DNA from: Zootoca vivipara
Taxonomy: Eukaryota
Assembly (NCBI RefSeq): GCF_963506605.1
Contig: NC_083294.1
Span: forward strand, 1,674,001 to 1,738,000
DNA length: 64,000 nucleotides
Direction of reading: 5' to 3'
The position numbers and the translations under genes are program-made. Below, one piece after another: positions 20,084 through 54,294 of this stretch. Position 1 is the stretch's first letter. Every line of letters starts with the position of its first letter. The notes under the pieces are model-generated. The model saw only the letters and a list, made by a program, of their open reading frames with translations, had not been told where the DNA came from and ran no database searches.

Positions 20084-20706
20084 GGTTCTTCTCCGATAAC
20101 TGGGAAAGGGCATTCAATACAATGGAAAAAGGACCTGTGAATAAGTAGACCGGAAATAACAACTGTTCCTTGGACCCAAGTTTTTTTATATTTAAAAAAA
20201 CCAGGACGTGTAGCTCTCTTGGGTAGGAACATGCAACTGCTTTGAAGCCCACTTGATCACGTAGCCATCTGGCCAATGTACAAAGGAATTTAAAACAAGT
20301 TTAAAGGGAGTCTGGAAACTGTGGCTTTAAAAAAAATGTTATATGTGTCACTTAACTGTGATTGTTTAAATATGGTTTGTTTTAACAAGTCACCTCCATG
20401 GTTTGAAGTTGACTAATTCTGAACAAGCCATAGTTGAAATTCTCCAGAGTTTGTTAGTTCAGATGACAAATCAAGCTGCAGAAGCTTCCAAATTCCTAGA
20501 CGAGAAGGCAGGGGAGCATGCAAGTCTCAGGCTCACTGCTGCTTATTCTCATGATGCAAAAGCAGCTGTGGGGAACCTCTATCCCTTCAGATGTAGCTGA
20601 ACTATAACTCCTATAATCCCTGGCCGTTTTTACTGGGGCCGTTGGGAGTTGTAATTCAGCAATGTCTGGAGGAATGAAAGCTCCCACCCCATGCTAAGGT
20701 TTAACA

Positions 20707-20842
20707 CAGGCATCCCCAAACTGCGGCCCTCCAGATGTTTTGGCCTACAACTCCCATGATCCCTAGCTAACAGGACCAGTGGTCAGGGATGATGGGAATT
20801 GTAGTCCAAAACATCTGGAGGGCCGAAGTTTGGGGATGCCTG
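20707..20842. mobile_element. Palindromic hAT (Buster-type) MITE
   Basis: TIR caggcatccccaaact; 8-bp TSD gtttaaca. Confidence 0.9.
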
Positions 20843-21374
20843 GTTTAACAGCTAAACTACATTGCCTCCAAACCAGATCAATGTATCCAAAGAGCATATT
20901 ATGATCTTGTGCAGTGTGTCTAAGAGATTTTAAGAATATGCTAATCAAGCAACTGTGCATGCTCCAGCTCATCTTCATTTCATTTTTTTAAAAAACTACT
21001 CAATAAAACACTCTGGAATACAGACAATAAACTAAATACCCCTTATTTTTCTAGGATTAACCTAAAACATTGTATTTCAACTATGAGTGCATGCCTGGAA
21101 TAGAAACTCTGTATATAAAAACTCTTTACATCTTAAACTATATAACTTACCTCAATACATACCTGGCATTTTGTCCAAGTTCACAAAGTGTAAATGCTGC
21201 TCTCTGCCTCCATTTAATGACTGCTAGAGTGTTTTGATAACTTCCCTAGTGACCATCCATGAATACATATAGCCTAGCATACATCCTGTTCTTGCTGCCC
21301 TCATCATGTGGAGACAACCCCCTCTTAAAAGTTTGCACTATGGCTAACTTATGCTATGTGGTACAGTTACATAC

Positions 21375-21453: not shown

Positions 21454-21660
21454 CTAGAAAATAAAATGAAGCCCCCAGTTTAAAACAGCAAGCATTCTTG
21501 TTTCCAGTACACAGCTACAGCATTGAATCCAGAACCAACTGACTGAACATTCATACTGTTATAACTGTGCTTCTCGCAAGCTACCCATTTATTAGCCTCA
21601 AGCCCAGATAGTTATATTTAGGCTGTTAGCACAGTCTGCTTTAGGTACCGACGACTAGTA

Positions 21661-21796
21661 CAGGCATCCCCAAACTTCGGTCCTCCAGATGTTTTGGCCT
21701 ACAACTCCCATAATCCCTAGCTAAGAGGACCAGTGGTCAGGGACGATGGGAATTGTAGTCCAAAACATCTGGAGTGCCAAAGTCTGGGGATGTCTG
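21661..21796. mobile_element. Palindromic hAT MITE, same family
   Basis: Same TIRs; TSD gactagta. Confidence 0.9.
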
Positions 21797-22357
21797 GACT
21801 AGTATATGCTTACCCCCAAAAAGGGCCTCTAGATGTTGCTGGACTACAACTCCCACAGTCAATAACCATTGCCCATGCTGTCCAAAGCTGAAAAGCTGGG
21901 AGTCCACAGCCTCCCCATCTCTTGAGAACTAACTCATGTACCACTCTTTTTCAATCTGCTGGCCTCTAGATGTTTTGGACTACAATTCCCATCAGCCATG
22001 TGTGCCCTTCCTGATACTATTGGACTACAATTCCCATCAGAGACAATATACAAGGCCAATTGTTAGTGAAGATGGGACTTGGAAGTCCCACAGCAGCTGA
22101 AGCAGTGGCCCCCACACTCTTTGCCCTCCCCCCCCCAAAGGATGACTTAGTTAGAAGTTGCTGGTGGTGTTGGCAGACCACTTATATGATTTATCTGGTT
22201 GCTGCAGCAATTGAAACCCACTTTGGTAGGTGCTTGGTGGTTTTGCATTTGCACCGTTCCTTTTCCTCTTCCGCCAGGAGCTCCCGCCTTGCCCTCACTC
22301 CCCACCCCGAGCAACGCTCCCAGCCACCGTTTCCTCAGCATCCTAACCCCGGCTCAC

Positions 22358-22580
22358 CATGGGGTTCTCAAGCGGCTTCGCAACCGCCGCCTCACGACGT
22401 CCTCAAAGCCGTGGATGAGGCGGCGGTAGCTGCAGAGGCTGCGGTTGCTGCTGCCATAGCTGCTGCCATGGAGACCTTGGCACCGTTGCGGCGCCGCCGC
22501 CGCCGCCGCGCGAGTGCAGGAAGTCCCACCGCAGCGGCACGGCCCCACCGACGAACAGCTGCCGCTCCAGGACGCGCAGA
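22358..22580 (-). other. ODF2: ODF2 putative first exon (5' end approximate)
   Basis: Consensus donor atg|gtgagc at 22358/22357 inside the CpG island, downstream of ETS/GC/CCAAT boxes. Confidence 0.65.
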
Positions 22581-22773
22581 CCGACTTCCGGCTCCGCCCC
22601 CGGCACGCCGCACGCCGCTCCCCCATTGGACGGTTCAAACCCCCGCCGCCGCCGCCCTCGTGACCCCCCCGATCGCCCGGCCGCCACAGGCGCTCTCTTT
22701 GGCGCTCGCGCGCACTCCTGGGCACAAGCCGGGGGCGCGCGTGGCGTCACAAGAGCCCCGCCTCCTCCTGTCG

Positions 22774-22787
22774 GTTGCCATGGGAAC
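22774..22787. promoter_or_regulatory. RFX X-box
   Basis: GTTGCCATGGGAAC, 13/14 match to the palindromic X-box GTTGCCATGGCAAC typical of ciliary gene promoters. Confidence 0.8.
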
Positions 22788-23282
22788 TGAGCGGCTTGCG
22801 TCCTGGGTTGGGACGCGCGCGAGATGAGGCCTGGAGACGTTGCCAACGGTTGTTGAGTTGGACTCCAACTCCCGTCAGCCCGCAGCCGGCGTGGCCAATG
22901 GTTAGGGCTGACGGGAATTCGAGTCCGGCAAAGCCCGGAAGTCCGCTATGGGGGTGGGTGAGGCCAGCTGGGCATGTATTCTGTATTCTGTATCTGTATT
23001 TAGATCGCTCTGCCGCCGCCGCCAGGGCAGCACTTGTGGTATTTTTAATCCGCACAACATCTTTGTGAGGTACGCCTGGTTTGGGAGAAGTGGTCATGCG
23101 CAGACCCACAGTACTTCATGGCTGAGTAAAGATTCAAACAGAGGTCTCCAGAATCACATGTGAATGCTCTCGCCTCTATGGCAGGCAGGCTGCCTCATTT
23201 TCTGAGCCAGTTCTCCAAAGAGCATAGTAACTGAAGAAGAGGACATGTGCTTTGGAGCACGTGTAGATGAGTCATCATCCAT

Positions 23283-24112: not shown

Positions 24113-24169
24113 CTGAGCAAGCACTTAGTAGGTTTCCAGCTTTGGACTGGTGGTGCCATAACTTATCAC

Positions 24170-25935
24170 CCCCAATTGGATTTTCTCACTTATGGATATT
24201 CTCAGTTATGGATCTTGTCAATTTTGCAGCACCTCAGCACTACTTCTGGCTTTGTCCCAAAGGTGGTGCCAGGGCTCTGGCAGCATCCCAGAGCCCTTGC
24301 ACCTTCCTTCCAAGGCCAAACAAAATGGACGGGACTTTGTAATCTTCCATAAAATGGCGCGTCCTTTAGAGGCCAATATTTGGCGCCCCCAACTGGAACG
24401 TCTCAATTTTGCACCACCTTGCATCAGCACCCTGTGCAGAAAAACTTCTAGTGCTCCAAATCCCGCACTGCGGTTAAGCAAGGTGCCTGGCTCTGGGAAG
24501 GAAACTGCAGGGCTTGGCCAGGTCCCAGAGCCCTCCGTCCCTACGAGACGCAATACACTTGCAGCAAAAAGTGTGCACCGCCTCCTGCTGCTTCTGTCCT
24601 TGTAGCTCTAGCTAGCAGGTGGCTGATATGTACAAATCCCATTATTTATGATGTTTTTGCTGCTGCATTTGCAGCACCAAAGTGAGCTCTCTGGGGCGCA
24701 GGTCTGGCAGTGTGTATGGAAGTCCTAGGCTGCCCAGATACTCTCCTCCGTGCCTTGCTGATATGGTCCAAAGGAAAGCAGAGCAATAGGTCTGGCACCA
24801 GCCTGGCTACAGCAGTTGAGGCTCCTATGGTAGGGTTTACTCCTTAGCAGATGTATTGTCGTTGAAGTGTGATAAGGGGATGGCTCTCCTGAGGTAACAA
24901 AACATAAGCCCTTAAAAGCCCACAGCCATAGCTGCCAACTTCTCCCTTTTTTAAAGGGAAATTCCCTTATGCTGAATAGGCTTCCTCGCGAGAAAAGGGA
25001 AAACTTGGCAGCTATGCCCACAGCTGAAGGGCAACATCGTTTCTCATAAACCATCTTTAGAAGAAACAAACTTAAGCATAGTAGTTCAACTCTGGAATGC
25101 TGCCTTCCCAAAGCCGGAAGTGGTGCTAAGGTGCTGCAAAATTGAGAAGATCCATAATTGTGAGGATCCACTTGGGGGCGCCTAATATTGGCCTCTAAAG
25201 GGCGCCATTTTATGGAAGATTACAAAGTCCCGTCCATTTTGTTTGGCATTGGGAAGACGGTGCAAGGGCTCTGGGATGCTGCCAGAGCCCTGGCACCACC
25301 TTTGGGACAAAGCCAGAAGTGGTGCTGAGGTGCTGCAAACTTGAGAAGATCCACATGGGGGCGCCAAATATTGGCTTCTAAAGGACGCGCCATTTTATGG
25401 AAGATTACAAAGTCCCATCCATTTTGTTTGGCATTGGGAGGAGTGCCCTGGCACCACCTCCCTCAAGCTGGAAGTGCTGAGGTTCACAAAAATGAGAAGA
25501 TCATAACTCTAAGGATACACTTGGGGGCGCCGAATAATGGTCTTGCACTGGGCTATGGGAATGACAGGAGGGCTTTAGGACCCTGCCTGGAGCCAGGCGC
25601 CTTGCTTGCCGCAGTGCAGGAGATCTGCAATTTTCCTGCACGGGGCTCCGAGAAGATCCATAACCGAGAAGATCCATTCAAGGGCATCAAATATTGGCCT
25701 TGCATAGGTCACAAATTTATTAAAGATTACCAAAGTCCCTCCATTTTGTATGGCATTGGAAGGGCAGTGCAAGGGCTCTGGGATGCCTAGAAGGGGCGAG
25801 GAGGACTCTTGGACCCTGAGCCAGGCGCTTTGTTTAGCGGAGAGGAGATTGACACAGGGTGTTGAGGCAAGCTGGCACAAAACAGACGGTTCAATTGGGG
25901 GTGGTTCCACTTAGGGGCAGCAAATATTGGCCCCC
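24170..25935. repeat. Complex tandem plus inverted ~185-bp repeat array
   Basis: 24207-24396 is the reverse complement (about 90% identical by eye) of 25168-25352; further direct copies start at 25351, 25517, ~25675 and 25907. Confidence 0.85.
24927..25016. mobile_element. 90-bp hAT MITE
   Basis: TIR catagctgccaa; TSD cccacagc. Confidence 0.85.
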
Positions 25936-26055
25936 CACTTTGGGAAGAAGGGAAAGGCTATAGGACCCCACCAGACCTCTGGAACCTCCTTTCCAGAGCC
26001 AGGTGCCTTGCTGAGGGGGCTTCAGATCACCCAATAAAATATTTCAGGTGACCGC

Positions 26056-26830: not shown

Positions 26831-28419
26831 ACACAGAGTACAATAAAAGTGAAATAAAAGAAATCTGACTCATGGCTGGGTTTTTTCCATGAATTTAAGT
26901 ATCAGCAATAGAATCCCATCATTAGTGGTTTTAACAAGTTCTGGTTGCAGTCAATTTGGCTCAGAAACATTGTATCAATTACCTGAGGTAAGTGAATGGG
27001 AAGACTTTGGAATACTGTTGTAGTAATCGGTACGCAACCACTAAGGACACTGTTTGCGAATGACAACTGATTGGAGCGCAGTGAGCTGTCAAAATAGATT
27101 CTTCTGGTCAACCCATAGAAGTACATGGGAGCAGGCGGAGGAGACGTAGGGAGCTGTCAAAATTTCCTCACCTCAGCACCTTGAGCAGGAAAGCTGCCAA
27201 TCTCACCCCTAGCAGAGCACTCCCAAAGTCAGACAGGATCCTAAAGCCCACCCCTCCTTTTCAAAGCTGGGCAAGCACTTCCTAGGCTTATGGCTTTCAG
27301 AAGTTGGTGCCAGGGCTCTTTGAATAGATTAATCAATTACTCTCCTGTGAAGAAACGTTGCAGCCCCTTTCGCATAACACTAGACATCCAATGAAGCTAA
27401 ATGTTGGAGGACTTCTGACAGATAAAAGAAAGCACGTCTTAATGCAGCAAATAGTCAAACTATTTACCGTAACTTGCTCCCCCAGGAGGCAGTGACGGCC
27501 ATCAAAGGTGGATTTGATCCTCCCACTTTGTTCCCGATCTTCACTCAATCCTTTTTCTCTAGAGGAGAGGGCTTCATTTTGTGGTTCACTCCAGGTGCCA
27601 ACATTTCCTCAGCTGGTCCTGCCCCAGAAGCAGAACATGAGTGCAATAGCACTCTGACCCCACCCAATTGTGATTTCCATTAACTAGTGTTTAGAAGCAT
27701 CTCTGATACTGATGGTAGCATAGAGCCATCATCGCTTGTAGCCATTGGACCTAACCTGTAGGCCTCAGCCACCTCACAGGGCTGTTTGGGGCTTAAACCT
27801 TCTATGTTATGTTCCTTGGTAGGAGATTGCTTCGTTAGTGAGAAAGTGAGCTATTAAGCTAGGAAATTCCTATTCAACTATATCTTCTAGATTGATTCAG
27901 CCTGAGCCCCTCTTCTGCAGCATGCCCTACTTCATGGGATTGTTTTTACGGATTATCAAAATAACATATGCAAATACTCAGGGCTTTTGTTCAGCCGGAA
28001 CTCACCGGAACTCAGTTCCACACCTCTCAGGTAGGCACCATTGCCATTATAAGAGAACAAGATGAGTTCTCATGAGTCATGGCGAGTTGTGGAGAACGTC
28101 AGCAATATGCTGAGGGCACATGTTATGTACTGAGCTTGGATCCTAGAATAATACCGGTAGGCAGGTAGGATACTAGAAGGCAGCAACTTGATTGGACTGC
28201 AGGAGCCACCCAATCTGGCTCCAGGAGGAAGTGAATCAGAAAGAGCATGAAATCAACACAACTCTACTTCTTCTTTACATCTGCTGGTGAGGCAGTGGAT
28301 GTGCTGGACCAGTGTCTTCCCTCGGTAACTGACTGGATGACAGCCAACTGATGCAAAATTCAGAAACACTGCCTCTGAAGAGCAGGCACACTGTTTGTGG
28401 GCACTTCTCAATCCATTTC

Positions 28420-29760
28420 TATCGCTCGAGGCTCAGGTGGCCTCAGTGGCCCAGAGTGCCTTCCATCTGCTTTGGCTGGTGGCCCAGCTGTGCCCCTATC
28501 TGGACAGGGATAGTCTTAACTTCTGTTGTCTATGCTCTGGTAACCTCTAGGTTGGATTGCTGCAACACATTCTACATAGGGCTGCCTTTGAAGATGGTAC
28601 GGAAGCTTCAGCTGGTGCAGAATTTGGCGGCCCGGTTGCTCACCAGGGAAAGACGATTTGAGCATATCACATCAATCCTGGTCCAACTGCACTAGCTGCC
28701 AATCAGCTTCTAGGCCCAATTCAAAGTGCTGGTTTTGACCTATAAAGCCTTTAACTGGGGGTTCAGGACCACAATACCTTAATGCAGTGGTTCCAAACAG
28801 GTGGTCCGGGGACCCCCAGGGGTCCGTGAGCTATGCCAGAGGGGTCCTCAAGATCCTATTAGAATAAAAAATATATTAAATATATTTCGTATGATAACAG
28901 ATTTTTTGTTTTGGCCGCTTCCTGCATGAGCAGAGTCTAGTGCAAAACTAGAATTAGATAGAGGCAGTAGTTCTGCTGTATGCCGCAAGGACTACAAGAA
29001 ACTTGGAGATAAGGCAATGAAAAAGATCCTTCCATTTGCAACCACATATCGGTGTGAGCAAGCATTTTCTTCCATGTGTTTCATGAAAAACAAATATAGG
29101 AATTGGCTTGACATGCGGTCGGATTTCAGAGTGAAAGTTTCAAGTTTGGAACCTAATATTTCAGAAATAATGGACTCAAAGGACAGATTTAACTCATCTC
29201 ATTAAGAACTGAAAATTAAAACTAACTGTATGCTGATGGAGTACTCTGTTGTAACTGTAAAAAAATGTATAAATATAAAATATAAAGACTCTTAATTTGG
29301 CTCTCACTTTTTAATTTTAGGATTAGGAATTAATGGGGGTCCTTGTCACAATAGCGGCTCGATGAGGGGTCCTTGAGAAAATTTTGTTGGGAACCCCTGC
29401 CTTAAGGACCGCCTCTCGCCATATAAGCCATCCTGGATTTTGTGTTCATAATTCATGTGTCTCCTCCACGTAAGGTCTGAAGGGTGGCAACACGAGAATG
29501 GACCTTTTCTATAGTGGCTCCCTGTTTGTGGAATGTTCTGTCCAGGAAGGTTTGCCTGGCACCTTCATTATGTATTTTTAGGCGCCAGGTGAACACGCTC
29601 CTCTTCAACCAGGCCTTTGGCCTACAGCCTTTTAAATGTATCTGTGGGAGGGCGGGTATTGTTTTGTTGCTTTGGTTTAATTATTTACTGTGTTTTATCT
29701 TGTATTTTATTCTGTGAACCGCCCTGAGATCTTCGGATAAAGGGTGATATATAAATTTAA
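28420..29760 (+). mobile_element. L2 3' fragment interrupted by a hAT element
   Basis: ALVTSRLDCCNTFYIGLPLKMVRKLQLVQNLAARLL...HIT; continues after 29407. Confidence 0.8.
28785..29399 (+). mobile_element. Internally deleted hAT (Buster/Charlie-like) transposon with transposase C-terminus
   Basis: TIRs cagtggttccaaac...gttgggaacccctg; TSD ccttaatg/ccttaagg; 29017-29205 reads LPFATTYRCEQAFSSMCFMKNKYRNWLD (hATC dimerisation domain). Confidence 0.88.
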
Positions 29761-33687: not shown

Positions 33688-35145
33688 TTAGTTTAAAGCT
33701 TCCACAACTGATGAATTTCCTTCGTTCACATTTCTCCAACTTTAGACACTGCTTGCAAAACAGCAAACTTTTTTTTTGTTAAGATTCCAAGTCTGCCCTC
33801 TAGGGATAAAAAGCAACAACTCTAAAAACAGAGACATACTATCAGTTTAGTTAATTAATTAGATTTAGTCAAATCTTCCCGCAGGCAAAGGAAGTCCCAA
33901 AACGAATTGCGGGGGGAAAAAAACACCTTGGAATTCAATTCATAATAATGCGTTATGGGCAACTAAGTTCTACTCAGAGTAGACCCACTCTAATGAATGT
34001 TGCCAGTTGTGGGGAAGGGGAGTGCTCTTGTCCGGGTTTCCCGTGGACATGACGTTGGCCACTGTGAGAACAGGGTGCTGGACTTGATGGGCCATTGGCC
34101 TAATGCATCAGGCTATTCTTATGTTCTTTACCAGAGTTAGTAATGTCCATCACATTTAATAGAGCTACTACCCAAATGTTCCCATTATGACAATATCAGA
34201 GTGTCATTGTAAGGATTCTGAATCTTAAAGAGGGAAGCAGAAAAAGGGCTGTCAAAGTGGATTCACTGAAATAAATGGACTTTGGTTAGACCAGAGCATT
34301 GATTGCAATGGGTCTATACTCTAGAATATGATTCAATCTAGGATCCTTTTATGATGATCTAGGTGGGACAGCAACTGAACTTTCCTAAGCAAACTGAAGA
34401 GGGACTGCTGATCCTGAAGACAGATCAGCCATCAGGTCCTGCCAAGAACATAAATTCAAGCAGAGGCAATCGGGTGTAATTTTAAGACCACTAACATAAG
34501 AACCAAACAGACCGACGAGAGGACCCACTCCTTTTTTTTAGTGTTTCAAATTTGTAAAGCAGTTTGGGTGTCTTGGCAAAAAGGTGAGATACAAAATCTG
34601 TCAAGTAAATAAATAAGTTAGCATATAAATGTGTTCCCATATTACTCAGCAAAATAAAGCTGGAGGATTGCTATACATCATGCTGAATCATCATCTCAGT
34701 GACTTCAGGAAGACCCCCTAAGGCCCCTTGCTGTTTAAATATGTGCCGGACATAAAGGTTAATAACTTGGTCAAACACAAGCAGACATAAAAGGGAACCA
34801 TGTCATGGAACCCCAGTGGCAAAAGTACAAGAGGAAGAGCTCTGCCTGCCCCACTCCTTCCCCTGGCGGCGGCAAGAGGGGAGTGTTCTGGCATGTGACA
34901 CTCATTTCCGCCCCCACCCCCGGTTGGAGAAGCTGAGCGGTTATGCTTTACAGAACGCCTTGGCACCCATCTCCCCAAGTTCGGCAAGAGCCAGGGTGTT
35001 CCTGCATACTACATTGCTACTTGGCTTCTCCATGGGGCAACATGGGATGGTCCGCCCCTGGTGAACCCCAACAACCGACAGCAGCCTGGCTGTCCTTGAA
35101 GTCAAGAAGAGAAAGATAAAATGAAGGTGTTACCCTTGAGCTTTA

Positions 35146-35487
<342 letters not shown>

Positions 35488-40556: not shown

Positions 40557-41398
40557 CTTCGCTCCCTGGGAAAGAAAAAGAGACGCGGGAGGGTCACGGA
40601 GTTTAAAAATAAAACAAAGGGGGATTTAAAGAGACAGGGCCCCCCCCTGCCAGATTTGCAAGATTTTTGAGGCTCCAGCCTGAATTGCACGTGGGCAACC
40701 CGACCCCCACACTGATTTTTTTTTAATCGCATTGCATCGCATCGCATGCGCTGCGCAGTAAGGTAACACATTTAGTTTATCGCTCACCTATTTCTCAACG
40801 TGGTTCTTCCCATCATTTGTTTATTTGTTTGTTTGTTTGTTATTTCTCTCCATTATTCATTCATATGCCCCCTAACGACAAAAGTCCTCTGCGTGGTTCA
40901 CAAGTTAACAAACTAAATTTTTTTAAAAAAAAATACAGAAAGGGATCTGCAAATATAATGCAGAAAAAGAAAATGACATTCGGCAGCAAGAGATATTTTT
41001 TAAAAGCGGTAAAAAAGGGGGAGAAGAAAACACGACTGAAAATGTCTTCAATCTTGAGGGAAATCAGGCTGTGAGAATCATTTTAAGGGGAATACTCCTC
41101 TCACTTGAGCCTGTCTAGGCTAGTTGCCCCTAATACAGGGGCACCAAGAAGGAAGTTGCACCGAATTCTATGGGGCATGCTCCCATGAAAGTGCGTGGGG
41201 AGGGGGGGATTGCAGCCCTGAGCCCTTCACTCCCAGATGCAGCGCCCACTGTGTGTGTGTTGGGGGGGGCGGGTGTCAGTTTCTCTCATTGCACTTAGTA
41301 GGGCTTAAGGTTATTTCACGCATGCTTTACTTGGAAAGAAAACTAAAGTGGGTATGAGTGGGTTGGTTATGATTATGATACTGGGAATAACTTATCCC

Positions 41399-41488
41399 CA
41401 TAGCTGTCAAGTTCTCCCTATTTTTAAGGGAAATTCCATTATGCTGAATAGGCTTCCTCGCGAGAAAAGGGGGAACTTGACAGATATG
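41399..41488. mobile_element. 90-bp hAT MITE, same family as 24927
   Basis: TIR catagctgtcaagtt; TSD cttatccc. Confidence 0.85.
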
Positions 41489-41739
41489 CTTATCCCGTGC
41501 ATTGCAAGAGCGTTTATGCAACCTGCAATAAAAATTGAAGCACAATCCAGCATGACAAAATACCCCCGCGCCCGCCGTCTTCTTTGCAAAAGGAGGAACT
41601 TCAGAAACACACAAAAAAGGCCTCCAGTTTGGGGATCTTTATGCATTTTGTGGGGCAGCTTTCAATTACGAAGACAGTTTCTCGCCCTTCCGATCTTCGC
41701 CAGGTGCCCACCCTCTCCATAACCATACAATTTAAGCAG

Positions 41740-54120: not shown

Positions 54121-54294
54121 NNNNNNNNNNNNNNNNNNNNNNNNNNNNNNNNNNNNNNNNNNNNNNNNNNNNNNNNNNNNNNNNNNNNNNNNNNNNNNNN
54201 NNNNNNNNNNNNNNNNNNNNNNNNNNNNNNNNNNNNNNNNNNNNNNNNNNNNNNNNNNNNNNNNNNNNNNNNNNNNNNNNNNNNNNNNNNNNNN
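54121..54294. other. Assembly gap (174 N)
   Basis: Run of N. Confidence 1.

What the first reader, a model, noticed from the sequence alone, without database searches (positions are those of the whole stretch)
24170..25935. Tandem and inverted repeat array pairing CTCF-like and YY1 motifs between ODF2 and PTGES2
Seen: a ~185-bp unit not matching any element class I recognise occurs once inverted (24207-24396) and as direct copies of decreasing integrity (25168, 25351, 25517, ~25675, 25907). Intact units start with CCAC(T/A)TGGGGGCGCC (25168, 25351; CCAGTTGGGGGCGCC on the minus strand at 24382-24396; variants at 25517 and 25907). CGCCATTTT follows about 20 bp later (25203, 25388, 24351 minus). 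The unit also contains a 10-bp hairpin (agggctctgg...ccagagccct). Established: CCASYAGRKGGCRS is the CTCF core (the best copies differ by one base) and CGCCATnTT is the YY1 consensus. Clustered, paired CTCF-YY1 sites are known from mammalian Tsix/Xist and imprinting control regions, and divergently oriented CTCF sites, as here, typify domain boundaries. Inference: a locally amplified, methylation-sensitive insulator or architectural switch, possibly an undescribed reptilian regulatory repeat. This is the best candidate for a novel system in the window.
Basis: partly seen in the sequence, partly recalled or inferred. Interest (0 to 1): 0.72.

Follow-up and report, generated by a model that had tools for sequence, protein, structure and literature searches.

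The report
Lizard Z-chromosome YY1/CTCF repeat clusters
A transposon-derived repeat sits in about a dozen clusters on one chromosome of this lizard, likely its Z sex chromosome, and its short words predicted to bind the regulators YY1 and CTCF are three times better conserved than the DNA between them, so it likely marks docking sites for regulating the whole Z, which would be a first lead on sex-chromosome dosage control in these lizards.

Summary
The array is real, but it is not local. It is one of 13 clusters (about 140 units) of a ~150-bp composite repeat almost confined to contig C19 (3.4% of the genome): 35 of 35, 38 of 46, 29 of 35 and 49 of 60 exact-pattern hits. C19 carries PGK, an LRRC8 gene and PTGES2 and is probably the lacertid Z. 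The unit is built from two old, genome-wide non-coding DNA transposons. Compared with them it has a better CTCF-like core, two YY1-like CCATTTT words and a retained CpG. Between clusters, motif columns diverge 0.10 against 0.31 for spacers (p=0.00025). Decayed sister units (0.33 vs 0.34) and autosomal parent copies (0.14 vs 0.18) show no such contrast, which points to purifying selection. No RNA covered the units in three runs. Best reading: selected Z-specific protein docking sites, probably for chromosome-wide dosage regulation, like Drosophila ISX or Poecilia picta YY1 transposons. Binding and function are untested, the CTCF assignment is imperfect, and I found no lacertid dosage-compensation data. 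The scan's earlier notes held no look-alike.

The parts
24150..24240 (-). Decayed 5' part-copy of the parent MITE (repeated 16-bp blocks, decayed core)
24260..24413 (-). Type A unit 1: TGCA 24413-24410 (17 bp before core), CTCF-like core 24396-24382, YY1-like a 24359-24351, YY1-like b 24328-24321, hairpin 24271-24297
24414..24570 (-). Upstream segment made of parent MITE 5' half and hairpin-MITE sequence; shared with clusters at C19 1.91 and 2.38 Mb (84-90%)
24861..25062 (.). Linker shared with clusters at 1.91, 2.38 and 17.5 Mb, here split by a later 90-bp MITE (24927-25016, perfect 8-bp target duplication)
25109..25302 (+). Type A unit 2: core 25168, YY1-like a 25203, YY1-like b 25234, hairpin 25265-25291; keeps the parent's 16-bp duplication, so no TGCA at -17
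25308..25460 (+). Type A unit 3: TGCA 25334, core 25351, YY1-like a 25388, YY1-like b 25419; hairpin deleted
25477..25553 (+). Truncated unit 4 (core at 25517 only)
25552..25790 (+). Hairpin-MITE lead-in plus decayed type B unit (core lost at 25674, no YY1-like a)
25853..26016 (+). Decayed unit 6 (core at 25907) and hairpin-MITE piece
27229..27319 (-). Outlying hairpin-MITE fragment shared with about 10 of the fetched C19 stretches
22250..23250 (.). Context: CpG island/promoter about 1 kb from the array; a spliced transcript starts near 22561 on the minus strand (gene identity not verified)
35143..35328 (-). Context: PTGES2 exon (synteny marker)

Best explanation
The array is one of 13 clusters of a transposon-derived composite repeat confined to one chromosome, likely the lacertid Z, whose conserved words are predicted to bind YY1 (two sites) and CTCF or another zinc-finger protein (one site) and likely serve as entry sites for Z-wide dosage regulation. 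Steps: (1, shown) two related non-autonomous DNA transposons, dispersed over all large chromosomes, fused into a composite; (2, shown) the composite carries a C at core position 4, CCATTTT in place of the parent's CCATATT, a second CCATTTTG where the parent's 3' end was, and often TGCA 17 bp before the core; (3, shown) it spread to 13 places on C19 and was then homogenised within clusters; (4, strongly inferred) purifying selection keeps the three motif blocks while spacers and type B sister units decay; (5, inferred) proteins bind these blocks at the DNA level with no lncRNA; (6, inferred by analogy) the clustered sites nucleate looping or a chromatin mark that adjusts Z expression in one sex, most simply raising the single female Z.
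For: Chromosome restriction in exhaustive exact-pattern scans: 35 of 35, 38 of 46, 29 of 35, 49 of 60 on a contig that is 3.4% of the genome, 24-30-fold. The 11 off-C19 hits are unrelated flanks. Z identity: C19 (48.7 Mb) is listed out of size order after 18 size-sorted contigs. It carries the intron-containing PGK gene, a solitary LRRC8 gene and PTGES2. The lacertid Z is GGA4p+GGA17 and lrrc8a is a qPCR-tested Z marker (PMC8622242 and PMC6534595 passages). Selection: between-cluster divergence at non-CpG sites is 0.10 for motifs and 0.31 for spacers in 71 type A units (block permutation p=0.00025); 0.334 vs 0.336 in 12 type B units; 0.14 vs 0.18 in 28 parent copies (p=0.26). The contrast holds in 1000 of 1000 one-unit-per-locus draws (ratio 0.29, 0.15-0.49) and, weaker, in the 14 of 71 units not hit by the discovery patterns. 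Core CpG kept in 48 of 71 type A, 0 of 12 type B, 5 of 28 parents. Z units vs parents: CCAC 91 of 137 vs 1 of 28; YY1-like a 84 vs 0; YY1-like b 65 vs 0; TGCA at -17, 70 vs 0. The TGCA-to-core distance equals that in the IL3 insulator oligo (PMC12885311 passage). Precedents: P. picta YY1 transposons (PMC10760456) and D. miranda ISX (PMC4384637 abstract).
Against: No binding, methylation, Hi-C or sex-specific expression data. No lacertid dosage-compensation study surfaced, and other ZW amniotes lack dosage balance (bioRxiv 2020.06.03.132241 Discussion). No unit is a perfect CTCF consensus: the T at core position 6 is inherited from the parent and kept (118 of 137 have TT; 2 have the A that CTCF prefers). 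The TGCA columns are no more conserved than spacers. Conserved blocks extend beyond both named motifs, so the readers may differ. Each single diagnostic change also occurs in scattered autosomal parent copies, so the gains need not have arisen on the Z. Clusters are uneven: none between 30.1 and 46.6 Mb. Patterns were designed from C19 copies, so they define this subfamily and do not show a general YY1 excess on the Z. Type B was picked by eye as a clade, and the 26.9-Mb cluster was left out of the conservation test.
Confidence: 0.47

Rival explanations
1. The units are selected CTCF/YY1 insulators or loop anchors that act locally in both sexes. Their Z restriction is historical: a founder spread by intrachromosomal duplication and conversion.
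For: Same conservation data. Core plus upstream TGCA at the IL3-insulator spacing, and tandem sites favour insulation. Same-strand arrays in most clusters. Several clusters are near CpG islands.
Against: Does not explain why none of thousands of autosomal domain borders uses the composite although the parents are on every large chromosome. The core was never improved to the CTCF consensus and the upstream word is not constrained.
Confidence: 0.22
2. The clusters are germ-line chromosome-identity marks read by a zinc-finger protein, for ZW pairing, meiotic silencing, or as targets or suppressors of drive (compare nematode pairing centres; recalled).
For: Single-chromosome clustered short words; conserved blocks exceed the YY1 and CTCF consensus; site-specific CpG retention suggests protection or selection in the germ line.
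Against: Clusters are spread along the chromosome, not at one end. The two best blocks fit YY1 (48 and 61 of 71 fit the recalled VDCCATNWY), a ubiquitous factor.
Confidence: 0.14
3. A functionless chromosome-specific repeat. The apparent motif conservation comes from ascertainment, gene conversion, or words that aid the repeat's own copying.
For: Transposon origin; within-cluster homogenisation and 170-bp tandem runs; clusters lie among LINE and Gypsy remains; the contrast weakens in units not hit by the discovery patterns (core 0.21, YY1-a 0.23 vs 0.33).
Against: Type B units found by the same profile show no contrast, nor do parents. Conversion would homogenise spacers too. The second YY1-like block stays at 0.12 and its tail at 0.06 in non-hit units. 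The composite has lost the parent's 3' terminal repeat.
Confidence: 0.12

Closest known systems
YY1-bearing transposon expansion on the Poecilia picta X (PMC10760456; abstract, section 9 and first part of Discussion read)
   Same: DNA-transposon-derived YY1 motifs concentrated on one sex chromosome of a vertebrate; proposed role in dosage compensation
   Different: Here ZW, old and diverged (spacers 31% apart) not recent; discrete clusters; fixed CTCF-like + YY1 + YY1 grammar; purifying selection shown against internal controls; no expression or methylation data
ISX helitron on the Drosophila miranda neo-X (PMC4384637; abstract read)
   Same: A derived transposon variant supplies dozens of binding sites to one sex chromosome; conversion among copies
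CTCF sites with upstream motif, e.g. IL3 insulator (PMC12885311 passages; bioRxiv 10.64898/2026.01.05.696797 passages)
   Same: TGCA 17 bp before a CCAC..GGGGC core in 70 of 137 units
   Different: Core has T at position 6; the upstream word lacks the GTTCC tail and is not constrained
C. elegans rex/MEX sites and Drosophila X-linked 1.688 repeats (recalled, no call)
   Same: A dozen or so X-specific clusters of motifs that identify the chromosome
   Different: Different motifs and proteins; 1.688 repeats act through small RNA, and none was sought here
Xist/Tsix and imprinting-control-region CTCF-YY1 arrays
   Same: Paired, clustered CTCF-like and YY1-like words on a chromosome partly homologous to the mammalian X
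   Different: Many loci, not one centre; not CpG islands; no transcript seen; independent transposon origin

Membership tests
TE-derived sex-chromosome dosage-compensation sites (ISX, P. picta) | Restricted to the sex chromosome | tested here: met
   35/35, 38/46, 29/35, 49/60 on C19; C19 as Z inferred from gene content and contig order, not from sexed coverage
TE-derived sex-chromosome dosage-compensation sites (ISX, P. picta) | Derived from a transposon, with motif-creating differences from the parent | tested here: met
   single changes also occur in stray autosomal copies
TE-derived sex-chromosome dosage-compensation sites (ISX, P. picta) | Motif under selection | tested here: met
TE-derived sex-chromosome dosage-compensation sites (ISX, P. 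picta) | Bound by the compensation machinery, or sex-specific methylation | not testable with these tools
   no ChIP or methylation data
TE-derived sex-chromosome dosage-compensation sites (ISX, P. picta) | The chromosome is dosage compensated | not testable with these tools
   no lacertid study surfaced; sex of RNA runs unknown
CTCF site with upstream motif | Core consensus | tested here: inconclusive
   55 of 137 units at 1 mismatch, 0 at 0; parents 0 of 28 at 1 or fewer
CTCF site with upstream motif | Upstream TGCA word at the IL3 spacing | tested here: inconclusive
   present in 70 of 137, same spacing as IL3 oligo, but not more conserved than spacers
CTCF site with upstream motif | CTCF occupancy and insulation | not testable with these tools
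   needs CUT&RUN and Hi-C
YY1 site | CCATNTT core in permissive context (VDCCATNWY, recalled) | tested here: met
   48 of 71 (site a) and 61 of 71 (site b)
YY1 site | YY1 binding | not testable with these tools
   needs EMSA or ChIP
Non-autonomous DNA transposon (parent element) | Short, non-coding, terminal repeats, target-site duplication, dispersed | tested here: met
   165 bp, CAG...CTG ends; flank identity 0.54 at 7 bp and 0.46 at 8 bp vs 0.28 shuffled, 30 copies; 736 candidates, 40 scored, 39 off C19; superfamily (hAT or P) unresolved
Non-autonomous DNA transposon (Z composite unit) | Both termini intact | tested here: not met
   3' end replaced by the second CCATTTT block; no transposase among the 150 longest of 547 frames around clusters
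Repeat-rich dosage lncRNA locus (Xist/RSX/roX/MHM type) | Repeats are transcribed | tested here: inconclusive
   near-zero depth over units at 2 of 13 clusters in 3 raw RNA runs, about 6% of each read, tissue and sex unknown; no Rfam match at gathering score
Imprinting control region / CpG-island DMR | CpG-island composition | tested here: not met
   CpG o/e 0.17-0.40 in units, like flanks
Satellite DNA | Long head-to-tail arrays | tested here: not met
   at most about five tandem 170-bp copies; most units 0.5-9 kb apart; TRF finds no array here

The most novel reading that the evidence does not exclude
These clusters are the cis-acting entry sites of an undescribed Z-chromosome dosage-compensation system in lacertid lizards: a transposon-built CTCF+YY1+YY1 module, as old as the lacertid ZW pair, on a chromosome partly homologous to the mammalian X, so that lizards and mammals independently recruited CTCF and YY1 to regulate the same ancestral gene block.
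Probability: 0.35. Interest if true: 0.92.

Novelty: new variant of a known kind. Interest (0 to 1): 0.76.

Why it matters
ZW amniotes studied so far lack chromosome-wide dosage balance, and in the papers I could search no sequence element is known that marks a reptile Z. A selected, Z-only motif module gives 13 exact places to test by ChIP, methylation, Hi-C and deletion. It makes the open question of how lacertids handle Z dosage, and whether dosage sets their sex, directly testable. Even without a dosage role, a chromosome-exclusive regulatory repeat under purifying selection needs explaining.

Tried and rejected
Local-only amplification: rejected. LTR, coding element or gene-family promoter: five open frames over the array had no Pfam match, and the 150 longest of 547 frames around the clusters gave only LINE, Penelope-like and Gypsy domains and one laminin-EGF exon. 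Hairpin as a Z-specific functional part: rejected; 90 sites genome-wide, the 50 listed all autosomal, inside a related MITE family. Structured RNA: no Rfam hit at gathering score. Convergent gain of TGCA by a GATC-to-GATG change (11 of 19 duplication-bearing units): downgraded, since most are one tandem expansion and an autosomal parent copy has it too. One search used a mis-spaced pattern and is uninformative. A profile search of the genome with the DNA alignment was not available, so diverged clusters could be missed. Run search: no RNA holder listed; only one organism appeared, so conservation in other lizards is untested. No supplements were read; repeat annotations in genome-paper supplements or Dfam/Repbase may already name the parent MITEs.

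Full report
Observation. The repeat is present as described. An inverted arm at 24209-24411 matches 25153-25353 at 92.6%, and the cores, CGCCATTTT words and hairpins are at the stated places. PTGES2 is confirmed; ODF2 was not checked.

It is a one-chromosome family. A search of the own genome with one unit gave 56 matches, 52 on contig C19 (6 of them in this window); only 40 of 397 candidates were scored. Exhaustive exact-pattern scans avoid that limit: the double-CCATTTT pattern hit C19 in 35 of 35 cases, the core in 38 of 46, upstream word plus core in 29 of 35 and the extended second block in 49 of 60; reversed controls gave 0, 0, 0 and 3. C19 is 3.4% of the genome, so enrichment is 24-30-fold. 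The patterns were read off C19 copies, so they delimit this subfamily. Profile scans of the fetched C19 stretches gave 108 spanning units, or 140 by a looser rule, in 13 clusters at 1.70 (this window), 1.91, 2.38, 8.36 (a single unit), 12.23, 12.33, 17.5, 19.9, 21.7, 26.9, 30.05, 46.58 and 46.60 Mb. Searches found no new cluster. Most clusters are one-directional; the 26.9-Mb cluster has convergent pairs.

C19 is probably the Z. Contigs C1-C18 fall in size from 136 to 9 Mb and C19 (48.7 Mb) follows out of order; C20-C30, the further contigs checked, are about 1 Mb or less. C19 carries the intron-containing PGK gene (its chicken 4p/human X position is recalled), a solitary LRRC8 gene (taken as LRRC8A because the other paralogs are grouped on C7 and C2) and PTGES2. 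The lacertid Z is homologous to chicken 4p and 17, arose 85-150 million years ago, and lrrc8a is among its qPCR-tested markers (PMC8622242 passages; PMC6534595 passages). Lacertid Z scaffolds are 45-51 Mb in assemblies of 18 autosomes plus Z (PMC12860763 and PMC13700897 passages). Sexed coverage was not available.

Origin. The off-C19 matches cover only the first ~82 positions and belong to a 165-bp dispersed non-coding element with CAG...CTG ends and 7-8-bp target duplications (flank identity 0.54 and 0.46 vs 0.28 shuffled, 30 copies). The hairpin comes from a longer relative with the same ends. The Z unit is a mosaic of the two and has lost the 3' terminal repeat. Against 28 anchored parent copies (of 30), the 137 anchored Z units (of 140) differ as follows: CCAC 91 vs 1, first CCAT(T/C)TT 84 vs 0, second 65 vs 0, TGCA 17 bp before the core 70 vs 0, core CpG 70 vs 4. 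The 17-bp distance equals that in the IL3 insulator oligo, where the upstream word is needed for insulation (PMC12885311 passages); upstream motifs raise CTCF affinity (bioRxiv 10.64898/2026.01.05.696797 passages; PMC10484683 passages; PMC13470930 abstract). Against this, each single change also turns up in lone autosomal parent copies, so a founder may have carried them.

Selection. A tree of 83 full units (26.9-Mb cluster left out because its second half is rearranged) groups 71 type A units largely by cluster on a star-like base, and puts 12 long-branched type B units from 9 clusters in one clade. Between clusters and without CpG columns, type A diverges 0.10 at 26 motif columns and 0.31 at 75 others (block permutation p=0.00025). 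Type B gives 0.334 and 0.336, and parents 0.14 and 0.18 (p=0.26). A first parsimony count that kept CpG columns also showed a weak contrast in parents (ratio 0.69, p=0.04), which is why CpG sites were masked. The type A contrast holds in 1000 of 1000 one-per-locus draws and persists, weaker, in the 14 units not hit by the discovery patterns. The core CpG survives in 48 of 71 type A, 0 of 12 type B and 5 of 28 parents, though overall CpG o/e is ordinary. Spacer divergence near 0.3 implies an old spread, compatible with the age of the ZW pair if a rate near 2 per billion sites per year (recalled) is assumed. The sampled parents look younger, probably because they are best hits to one query; this is not resolved.

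Who reads it. Both CCATTTT blocks fit YY1 (48 and 61 of 71 fit the recalled VDCCATNWY). CTCF is less secure: 55 of 137 cores are one mismatch from the consensus and none is perfect, the inherited T at position 6 is kept, and the TGCA columns are not constrained. Conservation extends outside both motifs (AT before the core, AAA after it, and a GTnTRGC tail diverging only 0.04), so an unnamed zinc-finger protein may take part.

RNA and context. Three raw RNA runs (about 6% of each, tissue and sex unknown) gave near-zero depth over the units here and at 26.93 Mb; the depth at 24927-25016 comes from a separate multi-copy MITE. No Rfam family matched. Flanks hold LINE and Gypsy remains, with no transposase and no repeated host gene among the 150 longest of 547 frames.

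Mechanism and comparison. The most likely reading is selected protein docking clusters that identify the Z for chromosome-wide dosage regulation (0.47). Rivals are local insulators (0.22), germ-line chromosome marks (0.14) and neutral repeats (0.12). It works like the P. picta YY1 transposons (PMC10760456 abstract, section 9 and first part of the Discussion) and D. miranda ISX (PMC4384637 abstract). Three defining features are met (sex-chromosome restriction, transposon origin, selected motif); binding and compensation are untested, so membership is open. Other ZW amniotes lack dosage balance (bioRxiv 2023.01.20.524006 passages), which counts against.

Novelty. Searches for lizard + Z + YY1 + CTCF + dosage compensation (one fish paper), lacertid + repeat + 'enriched on the Z' (none) and lacertid dosage terms (listings, with passages of the papers named above and of PMC8160951 and PMC9942394) showed no description of this element. 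The library lacks most subscription papers and I read no supplements. The scan's own notes hold no look-alike. Verdict: new variant of a known kind, interest 0.76.

Noticed in passing
window 24927-25016: 90-bp roughly palindromic MITE with a perfect 8-bp target duplication; another copy at 41398-41489; heavily multi-mapped in RNA runs; one copy also sits inside an autosomal hairpin-MITE (L135).
   Followed up: partly
G000:C19:26926854-26967284 (L050-L054): Largest cluster (about 49 part-units in 40 kb), rearranged into head-to-head pairs, so that two CTCF-like cores converge across 2-3 CCATTTT words; a distinct grammar, not included in the conservation test.
   Followed up: partly
G000:C19:12230557-12239300 and 12333796-12340292: Two sister clusters 100 kb apart with young 170-bp tandem runs; a laminin-EGF exon lies just beyond the second and a 1272-aa Gypsy pol frame just before it.
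   Followed up: partly
G000:C10:50537288-50538245: Intronless PGK copy with stops (processed pseudogene) on an autosome, while the parent gene is on C19.
   Followed up: no
window 20706-20843, 21660-21797: Two copies of a 138-bp inverted-repeat MITE (93% alike) flanked by TCTAGA-type target words, plus fragments at 21826-22041, 22859 and 23340.
   Followed up: no
window 28783-29400: DNA-transposon remnant with a short transposase-like tail inserted in a LINE fragment (seen by eye).
   Followed up: no
G000:C2:8754881-8756394 (L132): Three hairpin-MITE pieces within 2.3 kb on an autosome, without the CTCF-like or YY1-like blocks in the window comparison.
   Followed up: partly
window 54121-54294: Run of 174 N.
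   Followed up: no
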